From a virus, in the IMG/VR virus record IMGVR_UViG_3300032287_001974, positions 21,633-85,632 of that record: a stretch of 64,000 nucleotides of DNA, one strand, 5' to 3'. Of this stretch, positions 9,740-48,225 are shown piece after piece. The translations under genes and the position numbers were made by a program. Position 1 is the first letter of the stretch; every line of letters begins with the position of its first letter. The notes beneath the pieces are model-generated. The model did no database searches. It worked only from the letters and a program-made list of their open reading frames with translations, and had not been told where the DNA came from.

Positions 9740-10543
9740 ATGTCTGAAGAGATTTTCACAAGCAATACAACGGCAATTGAATCAGCTATCGCTGAGGTCA
9801 ATGATACGCCGGAAGTAGAGATCGAAACCGTTGCACCATCTAATACTGACGTGCTGCTCCCCGGCGGATTCATCGCCGGGGACGGCTCGGTAGTAAAGTA
9901 CGCAGAAGTGCGTGAACTTAACGGAGTTGACGAAGAGGCAATTGCCAAAACCGGAACTCCAGGCAAGGCTCTCATGGCTATGCTACAGCGAGGTCTAGTG
10001 TCTCTTGGCGGCGAAAAAGCTACCAAAGAGGACCTAGACAAGATGCTTAGCGGAGACCGTGACGCAGTGCTTATTGGTATTCGTCGAGTAACCTTCGGTG
10101 ACACTATTGACTTTGAGTTCCCTTGCGAAAACTGCAAGACAGACTTAAACGTAACCGTGAACTTAGGAACTGACGTCCCTTACAAGAATCTTGAGGACCC
10201 TCAAGAGGGACGCACGTTTGTGTACCAGTCTAAGACCAGCGGTGAAATTAAAGTCTCTTTGCCTACTGGCCTTGTGCAGCGAAAGCTTCTTGAGAACATT
10301 GATAAGAGCCGACCTGAACTAAACACCATCCTTTTGGCTGGCTGTGTAGATTCAATTAACGGCAATGGTTCTCTGGGAGCTAGCTCTGTTCTAAAGCTTG
10401 GTATGAAAGACCGAGAGCAACTTGTCACTGAGATCATTACCAGAACCCCAGGCCCACGCCTTGGGGAGGTGAAGACGACCTGTGAGGCATGTGGCGAGGA
10501 TATTCCTATGCCACTGTCGTTGGCAGATTTGTTTCGTCTATAG
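9740..10543 (+). CDS. Tail assembly chaperone / baseplate hub assembly protein (T4 gp26-like)
   Basis: VRELNGVDEE, GDRDAVLIGIRRVTFG, two CxxC motifs; between tube and TMP. Confidence 0.75.
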   Translation: MSEEIFTSNTTAIESAIAEVNDTPEVEIETVAPSNTDVLLPGGFIAGDGSVVKYAEVRELNGVDEEAIAKTGTPGKALMAMLQRGLVSLGGEKATKEDLDKMLSGDRDAVLIGIRRVTFGDTIDFEFPCENCKTDLNVTVNLGTDVPYKNLEDPQEGRTFVYQSKTSGEIKVSLPTGLVQRKLLENIDKSRPELNTILLAGCVDSINGNGSLGASSVLKLGMKDREQLVTEIITRTPGPRLGEVKTTCEACGEDIPMPLSLADLFRL

Positions 10544-28903: not shown

Positions 28904-29161
28904 ATGGCAGCAGGAGAATCATTTAAAATGACATTTGATGAATGGCTACAGATTGGCCTTGACAACGCCTGGGTAGGGCCATCCGTGTGCTCTACGCACG
29001 ACGGCATTCCAATGACTGGTGAAGAGGAAGAAGAAATGTACGAAGGGGACCCTTGCGTACACATTCTTAGACTTTACGAGGACGAGGAAACTAAGAAAGC
29101 TGTAGAGGAAAACCACTCTCCTAGCGTCTGGCGTGCAACCAACTCCGGTTTTAGTGTATAG
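28904..29161 (+). CDS. Hypothetical protein
   Basis: VCSTHDG..GDPCVHILRLY. Confidence 0.6.
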   Translation: MAAGESFKMTFDEWLQIGLDNAWVGPSVCSTHDGIPMTGEEEEEMYEGDPCVHILRLYEDEETKKAVEENHSPSVWRATNSGFSV

Positions 29162-29173
29162 TTGTACCTACAT

Positions 29174-29247
29174 CGCGGTGTGGGGCAGCTCGGTAGTCCG
29201 CTAGGCTCATAACCTAGAGATCGCAGGTTCAAATCCTGCCACCGCAA
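29174..29247 (+). tRNA. tRNA-fMet (CAU), initiator type
   Basis: Cloverleaf; C1:A72 mismatch, G11:C24, loop CTCATAA, TTCAAAT T-loop; no encoded CCA. Confidence 0.92.
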
Positions 29248-29263
29248 CGAAAGAAAGTGCAAT

Positions 29264-29401
29264 ATGGCAAAAGGAAAGGGCGGAGGCCCAAAGCCACCTG
29301 TTAAGGGCGGTAACTCAGACCGCAAGAACGGTAAAGCTGACAAGAAGTCTCCAAAAGTCTTTGACCCAGTAAAGCGCCGTCTTGTAACTAAAACTAAATA
29401 G
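29264..29401 (+). CDS. Small basic protein (MAKGKGGGPKP...)
   Basis: 45-aa ORF between tRNA and tmRNA. Confidence 0.5.
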   Translation: MAKGKGGGPKPPVKGGNSDRKNGKADKKSPKVFDPVKRRLVTKTK

Positions 29402-29407
29402 TGACTA

Positions 29408-29738
29408 GGGGATGATCGGTTTCGACGGTCATTCGTAAATTGGTGAAGCAAGCAGAGATAGCGGAGTCTCTTAAAACCGCTAAAAAAATAAATGCTGAAT
29501 CTCGTTCTGCATTCGCACTAGCTGCCTGATCGTAGTTAGTACCCCCAGGAAAGCAGCAGTTCTAGCTGGGCACTTGGGTTTTAAATAAATAGAACAACTT
29601 GTATCACGTCCATGCTGGAGACGTAAAACTGAAGCACCACAGGATGTGGCAGTTCGGTCCTGGAAATATAAACTGCCTAAGCTTGTAGAAGAACAACACA
29701 CTAATGATCGGACCGGGGTTCAATTCCCCGCATCTCCA
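29408..29738 (+). ncRNA. ssrA: tmRNA
   Basis: GGGGATG..GGTTTCGAC 5' end; GGGGTTCAATTCCCC T-arm and CATCTCCA 3' end; G3:U pair; tag ORF 29494-29529 AESRSAFALAA*. Confidence 0.95.
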
Positions 29739-29800
29739 CGCTTGCAGATAAAGGGAGCGCCCAGCGGTCTGCCCGTCCTAGGCAACGGAATTCTCCCAAT

Positions 29801-29872
29801 TGATCACTAGCTCAACGGCAGAGCAACGAGCTGTTAACTCGAAGGTTCCTGGTTCGAATCCAGGGTGGTCAG
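29801..29872 (+). tRNA. tRNA-Asn (GUU)
   Basis: Cloverleaf, loop CTGTTAA, G73. Confidence 0.92.
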
Positions 29873-29874
29873 CC

Positions 29875-29948
29875 CGCGGGGTAGGGTAGTTAGGTAATCC
29901 GCCAGCTCGACTAGCTGGAAATCGTGGGTTCAAATCCCACCCCCGCAA
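29875..29948 (+). tRNA. Atypical initiator-type tRNA with GAC (Val) anticodon
   Basis: CGCGGGG/CCCCGCA acceptor (C1:A72), GGGT/ATCC D-stem, CCAGC/GCTGG stem with loop TCGACTA, GTGGG-TTCAAAT-CCCAC, A73. Confidence 0.8.
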
Positions 29949-29949
29949 C

Positions 29950-29984
29950 AAAAAAGCCCCAGGCTATAAACCTGGGGCTTTTTT
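29950..29984. terminator. Bidirectional intrinsic terminator
   Basis: AAAAAAGCCCCAGG / CCTGGGGCTTTTTT between convergent units. Confidence 0.85.
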
Positions 29985-29993
29985 ATTTAGTTA

Positions 29994-30347
29994 TTACTTG
30001 ACGTTGTCGTCGTCATCAAATAGATCAGAGAGGTCTCCGAAGTCGTCTAGCTCTGAGGTTTCTTTGGCTGAGGCTTTTACAGCTTCTGCAACATCCTTAT
30101 TGTCAGCGGCTTGTTTAGCAACAGCAGCGCGGAAGCCTTTTTCGATGTCTTCGTCTGAGATATTTGCATCCCAAGCTAGCTGAACACCGAAGAAGATAAT
30201 AATTGATGAGAACACTGTTGCAACACCGATAAGACCACCAGCAACCCATCCAACTGACGAGCTACCACCAACGGCAGCACCAGGGATAAACGCAAACATG
30301 ACTACACCAATGGAGCGAACAATAATTTGTTTTAATTGCTTAAGCAA
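29994..30347 (-). CDS. Holin-like membrane protein
   Basis: Two hydrophobic segments; TTG start with GGAG RBS; next to endolysin. Confidence 0.55.
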   Translation of the reverse strand: MLKQLKQIIVRSIGVVMFAFIPGAAVGGSSSVGWVAGGLIGVATVFSSIIIFFGVQLAWDANISDEDIEKGFRAAVAKQAADNKDVAEAVKASAKETSELDDFGDLSDLFDDDDNVK

Positions 30348-30873
30348 GCGGGGTCTCCTTCTTAGGGGCTTTAGAAGTTGGAGCAGGAGCAACTACTGGA
30401 GCTTCTGCAGGGGCAGCGGTTTTTGCAGCAGCTTTAGCTGCAGCGGCTTCGCTCTTAATCATTTTTTCTAGGAAAGTGTGGGCGTCGTATACCTTGCCAG
30501 TAATGCCTCCACCGCTGGTTAGCGATAGGGTAAAGTGCAGGTGAACCCCGCTACTGGCGCTTCCAGATGTTCCAGCCCCACCAACTGAAGCACCAGACTT
30601 AACTTTGGTGCCTACTTTAAGAGGAGACTGCTTGTCCATGTGGCAGTAGATGAAATAGTGCTTCCCAACCTTAAGCTCAACAACCCAACCAAGGACGTCA
30701 GTCCATTTGTTTAGGGTAATCTGACCATCTCCAACAGCTGGCAGCGGTGTGCCAGCTTTGAAGCCGTTGTAGTCCACGCCTCGGTGAGGGCCTAGGCCCA
30801 TAGCCTTGCGCTGAGGTGAGTGCGAGCCAAATGGGTCAGCAACCTTTTTGAACGGCAAACGGTAGTTGTACAT
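30340..30873 (-). CDS. M23 peptidase (probable endolysin)
   Basis: HRGVD, YCHM, GVHLHF. Confidence 0.85.
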   Translation of the reverse strand: MYNYRLPFKKVADPFGSHSPQRKAMGLGPHRGVDYNGFKAGTPLPAVGDGQITLNKWTDVLGWVVELKVGKHYFIYCHMDKQSPLKVGTKVKSGASVGGAGTSGSASSGVHLHFTLSLTSGGGITGKVYDAHTFLEKMIKSEAAAAKAAAKTAAPAEAPVVAPAPTSKAPKKETPLA

Positions 30874-30904
30874 TGTAGTCCTTTCAGTACTTGTCTATTG
30901 TCTC

Positions 30905-31072
30905 TTATTCGTCGTGGTTTCGCAGGGGAAACGTAACGACCCAAGCAATAATTGCACCAATAATGGCCCAACCAACTACCGACTTAGCCGAGCCCTCAAG
31001 TACGATCCAGGCCACAAACATACCCAGAAGGGTCCATAGTTGGCCCAGCATGTCGTTAAAAAACTTTTTCAT
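30905..31072 (-). CDS. Small 2-TM membrane protein
   Basis: MKKFFNDMLGQLWTLLGMFVAWIVLEGSAK...PLRNHDE (55 aa; not in ORF track); coupled to upstream stop. Confidence 0.65.
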   Translation of the reverse strand: MKKFFNDMLGQLWTLLGMFVAWIVLEGSAKSVVGWAIIGAIIAWVVTFPLRNHDE

Positions 31073-47412: not shown

Positions 47413-47940
47413 ATGTCCAATCCAAATCAGAATACCCAGAGCCTAGGTGCAGGTGGCCTTTACGGTACCTACACTAACTACGGTGGTGGCGGTACTCCAG
47501 TTGCGCGTTCTGAGATGGACTTCATGCGCATGGGTGTTGGCCGCGAGCCTAGCGCAGAGTACCCAAACGGTTATCTAGGTACAATTCGTTCACGCCGTGA
47601 CGACCGTGGTCGCCCTAACAGCGTATCTGAACAGGTATTGCAGGGCCTAAAGGTTCGCCAAACCCAGCGTGGTTACCAGCGCGGTGTTCACCGTGGTGAG
47701 CGAATTGATCAGAACGATTACTACCTACCAACAGAACTAAGTGCTGACCGCGGAATCCGCAGACAAATGTCAGCTGCACGCAAGGGCGTGCCAACCCCAA
47801 GATTTGCACCAGTGTTTGCGCTTGCCCCTGCCCCACACCTAGTGAATGACGGCAAGGCAAACATGCGTTCAAATGAGCCGTTTGAGATGAACAAAGTTCG
47901 TCAGTCACAGCTCGCCAACATGAAACCAAACTGGAGGTAA
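47413..47940 (+). CDS. Hypothetical Arg/Gly-rich protein
   Basis: PSAEYPNGYLGTI..YQRGVHRGERID. Confidence 0.65.
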   Translation: MSNPNQNTQSLGAGGLYGTYTNYGGGGTPVARSEMDFMRMGVGREPSAEYPNGYLGTIRSRRDDRGRPNSVSEQVLQGLKVRQTQRGYQRGVHRGERIDQNDYYLPTELSADRGIRRQMSAARKGVPTPRFAPVFALAPAPHLVNDGKANMRSNEPFEMNKVRQSQLANMKPNWR

Positions 47941-47943
47941 ATA

Positions 47944-48225
47944 GTCCCAGCATTAGTAGGATTGCTAGCACGAGGTGCAGCAGCAGTAGGACTCCGTGGC
48001 GCAGCCGCAGGAGGAGGAGCAGCCGCGGGCGGAGCAGCTGCAGGTGGCGGAGCCGCATCTGCAATCGGTACTGCGTCACGCGTCGCTATGTTTTCCAGCG
48101 CGCTTGGCGGCGGAGACGATAAGGAATCAAAAGCCCCGCCCTCAGATGCGGAACAGTACACAGCATCGGAACAAAACTCGGCAATTAGCCGTTCATCAGA
48201 GTTTAAAACGGGCGGAACTTATTAA
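47944..48225 (+). CDS. Ala/Gly-rich hypothetical protein; proposed GTC start
   Basis: GGAGG at 47933-47937, 6 nt before in-frame GTC47944; TAA coupled to next ATG. Confidence 0.55.
   Translation, partial: VPALVGLLARGAAAVGLRGAAAGGGAAAGGAAAGGGAASAIGTASRVAMFSSALGGGDDKESKAPPSDAEQYTASEQNSAISRSSEFKTGGTY

What the first reader, a model, noticed from the sequence alone, without database searches (positions are those of the whole stretch)
29875..29948. Initiator-type tRNA with a Val (GAC) anticodon: candidate phage-encoded alternative start-codon system
Seen: a complete cloverleaf with the bacterial initiator signatures C1:A72 mismatch, G2:C71, C3:G70, purine11:pyrimidine24, A73 and TTCAAAT T-loop (acceptor stem CGCGGGG/CCCCGCA as in tRNA-fMet), but anticodon loop UCGACUA (GAC; atypical C33 and U37) and only G30:C40 of the three G:C pairs. 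A normal tRNA-fMet(CAU) is 700 bp upstream. Known: ValRS reads A35, C36 and A73; Fmt reads the acceptor stem; engineered E. coli tRNA-fMet with a GAC anticodon initiates at GUC with formyl-Val. Inference: a natural fVal initiator that licenses translation of GUC-start phage genes (candidates at 47944 and 10536), or a decoy for tRNA-fMet-targeting defence toxins.
Basis: partly seen in the sequence, partly recalled or inferred. Interest (0 to 1): 0.92.

Follow-up and report, generated by a model that had tools for sequence, protein, structure and literature searches.

The report
Phage initiator tRNA reading GUC
A freshwater phage carries a start-of-translation (initiator-type) tRNA whose anticodon reads the valine codon GUC instead of AUG, and one of its genes seems to begin on exactly that codon, so the phage probably has a private start codon, something published only for engineered systems.

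Summary
ARAGORN and Rfam both call a cloverleaf tRNA at 29875-29949. It has an initiator body (C1xA72, G2:C71, C3:G70, G11:C24, A73, G30:C40) and the anticodon loop UCGACUA (GAC, C33, U37).

It is not a decaying copy. Three other environmental contigs carry it with only two changes, although their flanks differ by 11-19%. One change is in the variable part of the D loop. The other is C1 to A1, which keeps the 1:72 mismatch.

A genome-wide scan finds one good cognate start, GTC at 47944:
- It lies 6 nt after GGAGG and directly after the stop of the upstream gene.
- Eleven relatives without the tRNA have ATG, GTG or TTG at that gene's start; in L240 the ATG sits on the same spot.
- Close homologues translate the same N-terminal VPAL... 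segment.
- Bases -2 to +3 (UAGUC) pair with loop positions 34-38.

The second proposed start (10536) is not supported.

Independently, I found about 52 Bacteroides-type phage contigs with initiator-type tRNAs (loop UUGACUU). They sit next to an Arg-rich gene that opens on GTC. The one phage with anticodon AAC opens it on GTT. This scan had already noted that system on other DNA.

Charging, formylation and initiation are inferred, not shown. I could not test whether the tRNA and the GTC start co-occur across this phage's own lineage.

The parts
29875..29949 (+). Initiator-type tRNA with anticodon GAC (loop UCGACUA; C1xA72, G11:C24, G30:C40, A73). No CCA is encoded.
   Evidence: ARAGORN; Rfam 52.3 bits; fold; near-identical copies in L001/L081, L218 and L223
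29800..29875 (+). tRNA-Asn(GUU), directly upstream. The Asn-GAC pair is kept in all four lineages.
   Evidence: compensatory changes in its anticodon stem between the window and L001
29950..29985 (.). Hairpin (GCCCCAGG...CCUGGGGC) flanked by an A run and a T run. Probable two-way terminator that closes the tRNA/tmRNA cluster.
   Evidence: sequence; matched as terminator-like stems by Rfam leader models; conserved in L001
29174..29248 (+). Ordinary initiator tRNA(CAU) of the phage (C1xA72; A29:U41, G30:C40, G31:C39). Absent from L001.
29408..29741 (+). Phage-encoded tmRNA (tag AESRSAFALAA) in the same RNA gene cluster.
47933..47937 (+). Shine-Dalgarno GGAGG, 6 nt before the GTC. It overlaps the end of the upstream gene (stop TAA at 47938-47940).
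   Evidence: Spacing lies in the main 4-7 nt range of this genome's canonical starts (34 of 51).
47944..48225 (+). ORF of 93 codons that opens on GTC. It is the proposed target of the tRNA and encodes a small Ala/Gly-rich protein (VPALVGLLARG...). The first canonical start is TTG at 47962.
   Evidence: relatives have ATG/GTG/TTG at this gene's start; close homologues start MEVVVPAL...
47413..47940 (+). Upstream gene (175 aa, unknown function). Its stop lies 3 nt before the GTC, so this is a coupled or re-initiation context.

Best explanation
The gene at 29875-29949 encodes a working tRNA derived from a bacterial initiator tRNA, with the anticodon changed from CAU to GAC.

Proposed mechanism, all steps inferred:
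1. It is transcribed with the tRNA/tmRNA cluster, and the host adds CCA.
2. Host valyl-tRNA synthetase charges it (A35, C36, A73).
3. Host formyltransferase formylates it (C1xA72, G2:C71, C3:G70).
4. IF2 places it in the 30S P site, where G30:C40 lets it pass the IF3 check.
5. It pairs with a GUC start codon.

Its most likely target is the small gene at 47944, which opens on GTC 6 nt after GGAGG and 3 nt after the stop of the upstream gene. U37 and A38 can extend the pairing to A(-1) and U(-2), giving UAGUC against GACUA. C1xA72, C33 and U37 should keep it out of elongation. The phage would thus tie translation of this gene to its own tRNA and give the protein an N-terminal (formyl-)valine.
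For: Shown here:
1. It is a real tRNA with an initiator body. Part of that set had been fetched by shared T-arm sequence.
2. It is under purifying selection. L001, L218 and L223 differ from the window by 11-19% in the flanks. The 75-nt tRNA has only two changes in total: one extra U in the variable part of the D loop, and C1 to A1, which keeps the 1:72 mismatch. The neighbouring tRNA-Asn changed more, with compensatory pairs. Twenty sequencing runs from 12 studies were flagged as holding the tRNA on only 4 sampled words; four of them were laid.
3. There is one strong cognate start, GTC 47944. Eleven relatives without the tRNA have ATG, GTG or TTG at the start of the gene at that position. In L240, TAAATA-ATG aligns exactly on the window's TAAATA-GTC.
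4. Close homologues begin MEVVVPALIGLVARG, so the VPAL... segment upstream of the internal TTG is coding.
5. An unrelated family of about 52 Bacteroides-type phage contigs has initiator-type tRNAs with loop UUGACUU. An adjacent conserved Arg-rich ORF opens on GTC with no upstream ATG. The one member with anticodon AAC opens it on GTT. All 18 distinct GAC/AAC initiator-type tRNAs have U37.

From papers:
- The E. coli initiator with anticodon GAC is charged by ValRS, formylated, and initiates and re-initiates at GUC (PMC2268962).
- G30:C40 alone is the essential one of the three G-C pairs, and cg/GC/cg mutants sustain E. coli (PMC5389676).
- An A37U initiator favours mRNAs with the complementary base at -1 (PMC10018350).
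Against: - Only one candidate GTC start exists. GTC is not enriched among Shine-Dalgarno-preceded codons genome-wide (1 hit; other non-start codons give 1-7).
- I could not test co-occurrence of the tRNA and the GTC start within this phage lineage.
- At 47944 other routes exist: AUA at 47941 (3-nt spacing, seen in 5 of 51 canonical starts); re-initiation after the TAA; in-frame TAA read-through; or a one-base error in the AAA run, which would restore the relatives' frame behind a CTG.
- The -2/-1 bases UA are also present in L240, which has ATG, so they did not evolve for this tRNA.
- C33 is untested in bacterial initiation.
- No expression, charging or formylation data.
Confidence: 0.55

Rival explanations
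1. The tRNA is a decoy or sponge that is not used for decoding. It would be an initiator look-alike that soaks up a host factor or toxin recognising the initiator acceptor stem or elbow (aminoacyl-tRNA acetyltransferases, acceptor-end nucleases or nucleotidyltransferases), and so protect the real initiator pool.
For: The initiator acceptor stem and elbow are strictly conserved while the anticodon arm is altered. Phage tRNAs are known to carry anticodon-loop changes linked to host tRNA-targeting defences (PMC10264068, listed). In L001 it is present without a phage CAU initiator.
Against: - A decoy for VapC-type toxins should keep the initiator anticodon stem-loop, which is what changed.
- A decoy has no need for a precise Val-type anticodon (A35, C36) plus A73.
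- It does not explain convergence on GAC plus U37 with the Bacteroides-phage family, where the anticodon tracks a start codon.
- It does not explain the GTC at 47944.
Confidence: 0.12
2. The tRNA is an unusual elongator tRNA-Val(GAC) that supplements GUC/GUU decoding. Its loop changes (C33, U37) would be selected to escape a host anticodon nuclease.
For: A35, C36 and A73 are the ValRS identity set (my knowledge). Two elongator-type phage tRNA-Val(GAC) genes with C33 (loops UCGACAA and UCGACAC) turned up in L144 and L174, so C33 recurs in phage Val tRNAs.
Against: - C1xA72 is kept as a mismatch even when position 1 mutates (A1xA72 in L223).
- It has purine11:pyrimidine24.
- It is 76-81% identical to initiators but at most 62% to Val elongators.
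- The 1:72 mismatch weakens EF-Tu binding, and a pyrimidine at 37 is seen in only about 2.6% of phage tRNAs, several of which are themselves initiator-type.
Confidence: 0.08
3. The tRNA is charged but used outside ribosomal decoding, for example as an aminoacyl donor for a transferase or as a regulatory RNA. The 1:72 mismatch, C33 and U37 would keep it away from EF-Tu and the A site.
For: The combination of ValRS identity elements with several features that disfavour elongation. Strong conservation without many visible target codons.
Against: No aminoacyl-tRNA-dependent transferase, Fem-like or cyclodipeptide-synthase-like gene was seen among 58 window proteins scanned against Pfam or next to the tRNA. 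The GTC-start gene and the covariation in the other phage family are explained better by initiation.
Confidence: 0.1
4. The tRNA is a non-functional relic of a duplicated initiator tRNA gene.
For: The loop is aberrant by tRNA rules (C33, U37). The gene is rare among relatives: 1 of 80 IMG/VR loci.
Against: - All stems are perfectly paired and the tertiary-contact bases are intact.
- There are 0-1 changes per copy against 11-19% flank divergence in three other lineages.
- The gene is followed by a conserved terminator.
Confidence: 0.05
5. This rival concerns the target only. Gene 47944 does not use the tRNA. It starts at AUA 47941 or at the internal TTG 47962, is re-initiated or read through from the upstream gene, is dead in this genome, or the extra A at 47939-47941 is an assembly error.
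For: - Close relatives start the gene 4 codons earlier on ATG or GTG in another frame relative to the upstream gene (inferred ATGGAGGTAGTAGTC). The window differs by CTG for ATG and by one extra base.
- The ORF is in frame with the upstream gene behind TAA.
- AUA lies 3 nt after the Shine-Dalgarno.
Against: - Other assemblies (P0133, P0136; P0133 is 88% identical to the window's protein) are also called only from the internal TTG, so the lack of a canonical start is not unique to this assembly.
- No fused 270-aa forms appear among the 120 listed homologues of the upstream protein, although lengths up to 307 aa were searched.
- The ORF stays open for 93 codons, and VPALVGLLARG matches the relatives' VPALIGLVARG at 9 of 11 residues.
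- GTC has the typical 6-nt spacing.
Confidence: 0.25

Closest known systems
Engineered E. coli initiator tRNA anticodon mutants: G34C36 (GAC) reading GUC, and i-tRNA(AAC) reading GUU (PMC2268962; bioRxiv 10.1101/2021.05.25.445580)
   Same: Initiator body with a Val anticodon. In the engineered case it is charged by ValRS, formylated, and starts and re-starts translation at GUC. The window's candidate start is also tightly coupled to an upstream stop.
   Different: Natural and phage-encoded. The anticodon arm is rebuilt (au/GC/cg instead of three G-C pairs) and carries C33, U37 and A38. No function has been shown.
Bacterial initiator tRNA-fMet, including the phage's own CAU copy at 29174-29248
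   Same: C1xA72, G2:C71, C3:G70, purine11:pyrimidine24, A73, G30:C40 and A29:U41 (the last shared with the phage's CAU copy). 76% identical to that copy.
   Different: Anticodon GAC instead of CAU; C31:G39 instead of G31:C39; C33 and U37 instead of U33 and A37.
Initiator-type tRNA(GAC/AAC) of Bacteroides-type phages with GTC/GTT-start Arg-rich genes. Unpublished as far as I could find. Noted earlier by this scan and re-found here, for example in Bacteroides phage BS-TP2, PQ571275.
   Same: Initiator acceptor stem and purine11:pyrimidine24, anticodon GAC, U37, and a small low-complexity gene that opens on the cognate codon right after a stop. Extended pairing of 37/38 with -1/-2 is possible (GAGUC with GACUU there, UAGUC with GACUA here).
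   Different: - Phage and host groups differ: here a WhiB-encoding myovirus of a presumably actinobacterial host that uses Shine-Dalgarno sites.
- Different D, anticodon and T arms.
- C33 and A38 here, U33 and U38 there.
- G30:C40 here, C30:G40 there.
- Here the tRNA sits in a tRNA/tmRNA cluster 18 kb from its candidate gene; there it is a lone tRNA about 0.45 kb upstream of its target.
- One candidate target and no covariation data here.
Phage tRNAs with anticodon-loop changes that evade host anticodon nucleases (PMC10264068)
   Same: A phage tRNA with non-standard anticodon-loop bases.
   Different: Those are elongators that keep their anticodon and decoding role. Here the body is an initiator and the anticodon itself is changed.

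Membership tests
Bacterial initiator tRNA | Mismatch or weak pair at 1:72 | tested here: met
   C1xA72 in the window, L001 and L218; A1xA72 in L223
Bacterial initiator tRNA | G2:C71 and C3:G70 (formyltransferase determinants) and A73 | tested here: met
   Acceptor stem CGCGGGG/CCCCGCA followed by A73
Bacterial initiator tRNA | Purine11:pyrimidine24 | tested here: met
   G11:C24 (D stem GGGU/AUCC)
Bacterial initiator tRNA | Three consecutive G-C pairs 29:41, 30:40 and 31:39 | tested here: not met
   The pairs are A29:U41, G30:C40 and C31:G39. The middle pair, the essential one in E. coli (PMC5389676), is kept. The phage's own CAU initiator also has A29:U41.
Bacterial initiator tRNA | Anticodon CAU read at AUG/GUG/UUG | tested here: not met
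   The anticodon is GAC
Bacterial initiator tRNA | Formylation of the attached amino acid and IF2-dependent P-site binding | not testable with these tools
   Needs biochemistry. Inferred from the acceptor-stem determinants and from the engineered GAC mutant (PMC2268962).
Elongator tRNA-Val | A35, C36 and A73 (ValRS identity; my knowledge, and PMC2268962 for the GAC initiator mutant) | tested here: met
   Loop UCGACUA and A73
Elongator tRNA-Val | Paired 1:72, pyrimidine11:purine24, U33 and purine 37, as in elongators | tested here: not met
   C1xA72, G11:C24, C33 and U37. The background is 97% U33 and 97% purine 37 in 538 phage tRNAs. Identity to Val elongators is at most 62%.
Phage private-start-codon system (initiator-type tRNA with a changed anticodon plus genes opening on the cognate codon) | Gene(s) with the cognate codon at the start position and no canonical start | tested here: met
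   There is one gene, GTC at 47944. 10536 is rejected.
Phage private-start-codon system (initiator-type tRNA with a changed anticodon plus genes opening on the cognate codon) | Presence of the tRNA and the cognate start codon go together among relatives | tested here: inconclusive
   Eleven relatives lack both, and the window has both. The three other tRNA-bearing contigs do not reach the gene. In the Bacteroides-phage family the covariation GAC-GTC and AAC-GTT is seen.

The most novel reading that the evidence does not exclude
This is a second, separately evolved lineage of natural private-start-codon systems, in a Shine-Dalgarno-using phage of freshwater Actinobacteria. A formylatable Val-tRNA with a rebuilt anticodon arm (au/GC/cg, C33, U37, A38) initiates at a single coupled GUC site through a five-base loop-mRNA pairing (UAGUC with GACUA). 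It would act as a phage-controlled switch for one small protein that receives a formyl-valine N-terminus.
Probability: 0.45. Interest if true: 0.88.

Novelty: new variant of a known kind. Interest (0 to 1): 0.82.

Why it matters
Start codon choice in bacteria is thought to be fixed by one initiator tRNA (CAU). Initiators with changed anticodons are known only as laboratory constructs for orthogonal translation.

A natural, phage-encoded GAC initiator would show that viruses can define their own start codon. That would have several consequences:
- Some genes become translatable only in infected cells.
- Gene callers, which allow only ATG, GTG and TTG, would miss or truncate such genes.
- It would supply ready-made orthogonal initiator parts for a Shine-Dalgarno context.

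Finding the same solution (GAC plus U37) in phages of two distant host phyla argues for function rather than accident.

Tried and rejected
- 10536 as a GUC start: rejected. It has no Shine-Dalgarno, -1 is C, and its ORF has a GTG at 10482 behind GGGGAGGTGA.
- Genome-wide search for more GTC or GTT starts: nothing beyond 47944. The GTT hits lie antisense to long genes. No GTC candidate in L001, L218 or L223.
- Homologues of the tRNA: none in the other 79 helicase-anchored relatives. Exact-pattern scans gave only L081 in IMG/VR and L218 and L223 in metagenomes.
- Scan of GTDB genomes with the 5' 20-mer: only two archaeal initiator tRNAs and one unrelated hit.
- IMG/VR scan for GAC+U37 initiators with a UUCAAAU T loop: only ours and one member of the Bacteroides-phage family (L246).
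- Linking the tRNA to the GTC start in other lineages failed. L001's contig ends 10 kb short and L218 and L223 are not held. Logan contigs of four runs were too short to bridge the two places and showed nothing usable there. Relatives cannot be drawn for a virus record.
- The 'phages' collection has no close relative. The best is Streptomyces phage BRock-type at 40% aa in the helicase.
- Pfam scan of 58 window proteins and 8 neighbours: no formyltransferase, deformylase, ValRS or initiation-factor gene.
- A first crude scan for GTC-start ORFs in the gut-phage loci was too noisy. The targeted look at Arg-rich ORFs downstream of the tRNA worked.
- Reading the loop as 9 nt (CUCGACUAG on a 4-bp stem) or as a minus-strand tRNA: considered from the sequence and dropped. 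The 5-bp stem is perfect and the minus strand lacks T-loop features.

Full report
**Context.** The window is part of an 85.6-kb virus record with 49% G+C. It encodes a contractile tail and baseplate, DNA polymerase A, RecA, ribonucleotide reductase and a WhiB-like protein, which points to a myovirus of an actinobacterial host. The nearest cultured relatives are remote: Streptomyces phage BRock-type at 40% aa in the SNF2 helicase. IMG/VR holds at least 130 uncultured relatives.

**The object.** An RNA gene cluster on the + strand reads in this order:
- tRNA-fMet(CAU), 29174-29248
- a small ORF
- tmRNA, 29408-29741
- tRNA-Asn(GUU), 29800-29875
- the tRNA in question, 29875-29949
- a hairpin terminator, 29950-29985

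ARAGORN and Rfam (52.3 bits) both accept the tRNA, and the free-energy fold is the cloverleaf. 29:41 is A:U, as in the phage's own CAU initiator, and 31:39 is C:G. The tertiary-contact bases (U8, A14, G15:C48, G18, G19, A21, U54, A58) are intact.

The body is initiator-derived. Part of that set had been fetched by shared T-arm sequence.

**It is under selection.** Three other contigs carry the tRNA: L001/L081 (IMG/VR) and L218 and L223 (metagenomes). In each it sits directly after tRNA-Asn.
- Their flanks are 81-89% identical to the window.
- The tRNA has only two changes in all: an extra U at the variable D-loop site (L218) and C1 to A1 (L223), which keeps position 1 unpaired with A72.
- The anticodon loop is invariant.
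- The adjacent tRNA-Asn diverged more, with compensatory stem changes.
- L001 lacks the CAU initiator, so the GAC tRNA does not depend on it.
- Twenty sequencing runs from 12 studies (freshwater, wastewater, shale gas, aquaculture) were flagged as holding it, on only 4 sampled words; four of them were laid.

A pseudogene is therefore unlikely. The sample is shallow, because all copies are near-identical. The refutation test 'the loop varies randomly among homologues' is answered only weakly.

**Is there a cognate start codon?** I scanned the whole genome for non-canonical codons that lie behind a 5-6-nt Shine-Dalgarno match, upstream of the first canonical start, in ORFs of 60 codons or more. 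GTC is not enriched: it scores one hit, where other codons score 1-7. A looser scan added nothing credible.

That one hit, GTC 47944, is good:
- GGAGG lies at 47933-47937.
- The spacer is 6 nt, inside the main 4-7 nt range of canonical starts in this genome (34 of 51).
- The frame is closed by the upstream gene's TAA at 47938-47940.
- The next canonical start, TTG 47962, has no usable ribosome binding site.

Eleven relatives that lack the tRNA have ATG, GTG or TTG at the start of the gene at that position. In L240, GGGGATAAATA-ATG aligns base for base on the window's GGAGGTAAATA-GTC.

In the protein database, the closest homologues begin MEVVVPALIGLVARG, with ATG or GTG starts. One of them (P0139) appears to share a 2657-nt contig with P0001, which is 99% identical to the window's upstream protein; I infer this from matching contig lengths. 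So the VPALVGLLARG segment upstream of TTG 47962 is coding. Two further assemblies (P0133, P0136) are called only from the internal TTG, as in the window. The missing canonical start is therefore not peculiar to this assembly.

From the protein overlaps I infer that these relatives read ATGGAGGTAGTAGTC. The window has CTG for that ATG plus one extra base, which moves the ORF in frame behind the stop. This leaves several rivals open: an AUA start at 47941 (3-nt spacing), re-initiation, TAA read-through, a dead gene, or a one-base assembly error. No fused forms were seen among the 120 listed homologues of the upstream protein, although lengths up to 307 aa were searched.

**Fit to what is known about initiators.**
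- The E. coli initiator mutant with anticodon GAC is charged by ValRS, formylated, and initiates and re-initiates at GUC (PMC2268962).
- Of the three G-C pairs, only G30:C40 is essential in E. coli. Variants such as au/GC/GC occur naturally, and cg/GC/cg mutants sustain growth (PMC5389676). The au/GC/cg stem here is therefore not disqualifying.
- Initiator position 37 pairs with mRNA position -1, and an A37U variant favours complementary mRNAs (PMC10018350). Here U37 faces A(-1) and A38 faces U(-2), so UAGUC can pair with GACUA. The UA is also present in L240, however, so it is not an adaptation to the tRNA.
- From my own knowledge, C33 is normal in vertebrate cytoplasmic initiators, and the 1:72 mismatch disfavours EF-Tu.

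**An independent parallel.** A pattern scan of IMG/VR looked for initiator-type acceptor stems with a non-C at position 34.
- Their tRNAs have C1xA72, A11:U24, A73 and the loop UUGACUU.
- They are lone tRNAs inside phage gene blocks. One lies unannotated in the cultured Bacteroides phage BS-TP2.
- About 0.45 kb downstream, at least 20 of the loci have a conserved Arg-rich ORF that opens on GTC in the context GA-GTC, with no upstream ATG. BS-TP2 annotates it from an internal ATG.
- The single member with anticodon AAC (L132) opens the homologous ORF on GTT.
- All 18 distinct GAC/AAC initiator-type tRNAs have U37, against 2.6% pyrimidine-37 in other phage tRNAs.

This scan's earlier notes describe the same Bacteroidota system. 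I re-derived it before reading them and checked the Arg-rich GTC genes and the AAC/GTT case myself. The window's tRNA differs in all arms and probably arose separately, so GAC plus U37 looks convergent.

**Literature.** Four full-text searches found only engineered non-AUG initiators and no natural phage case.

**Verdict.** The most likely reading (about 0.55) is a natural GUC-reading initiator whose target is gene 47944. The tRNA's reality and conservation, the anomalous start of 47944 and the parallel system are shown. Charging, formylation, P-site use and the tRNA-gene link in this lineage are inferred. Compared with the Bacteroides-phage cases, the evidence here is thinner: one target and no covariation. 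The case is still valuable, because it extends the phenomenon to a Shine-Dalgarno-using host group.

Noticed in passing
window 29408-29741; also L001 4291-4624 and L004: Phage-encoded tmRNA (tag AESRSAFALAA, Rfam 138 bits) inside the tRNA cluster. It is 93% identical in L001.
   Followed up: partly
window 29159-29263 versus L001 4133-4142; L001 4625-5395: The tRNA cluster is fluid. L001 lacks the CAU initiator tRNA, a clean presence/absence of about 100 nt. It has a tRNA-Trp(CCA) plus about 0.7 kb with two small ORFs inserted between the tmRNA and tRNA-Asn.
   Followed up: partly
L102 and L170 (Arg CCU, loop UUCCUUA); L105 (Asn GUU, loop UUGUUCA); L110 and L190 (Met CAU, loop CUCAUUA): Other IMG/VR tRNAs with the initiator-type CGCGG...CCGCAA acceptor stem carry non-CAU anticodons and/or a pyrimidine at position 37. 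They may mark further private start codons (AGG, AAC).
   Followed up: no
L144 and L174: Elongator-type phage tRNA-Val(GAC) genes with C33 (loops UCGACAA and UCGACAC). UCGAC recurs in phage Val tRNAs, perhaps a nuclease-evasion change.
   Followed up: no
L245 (Bacteroides phage BS-TP2, PQ571275) 30195-30266 and 30718-30912: The initiator-type tRNA(GAC) is not annotated in the GenBank record. The Arg-rich gene gp53 is annotated from an internal ATG (30751), although the ORF opens on GTC at 30718, right after a TGA.
   Followed up: partly
L242 and L243 (archaeal MAGs): The 5' 20-mer of the tRNA (GCGGGGTAGGGTAGTTAGGT) is shared exactly with two archaeal initiator tRNAs (Crenarchaeota, Thermoplasmata). 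This is probably convergence of a G-rich D arm.
   Followed up: no
window 29265-29402: A small Lys/Gly-rich ORF (45 aa) lies between the CAU initiator tRNA and the tmRNA. The stretch is 92.5% identical in L001.
   Followed up: no
window 47944-48225 versus L210-L214 and L236-L241: The slot after the conserved 175-aa gene holds very fast-evolving small Ala/Gly- or Pro-rich proteins that share only a C-terminal SR..F..G motif. The GTC-start targets in the gut phages are also small, low-complexity (Arg/Gly-rich) proteins.
   Followed up: partly
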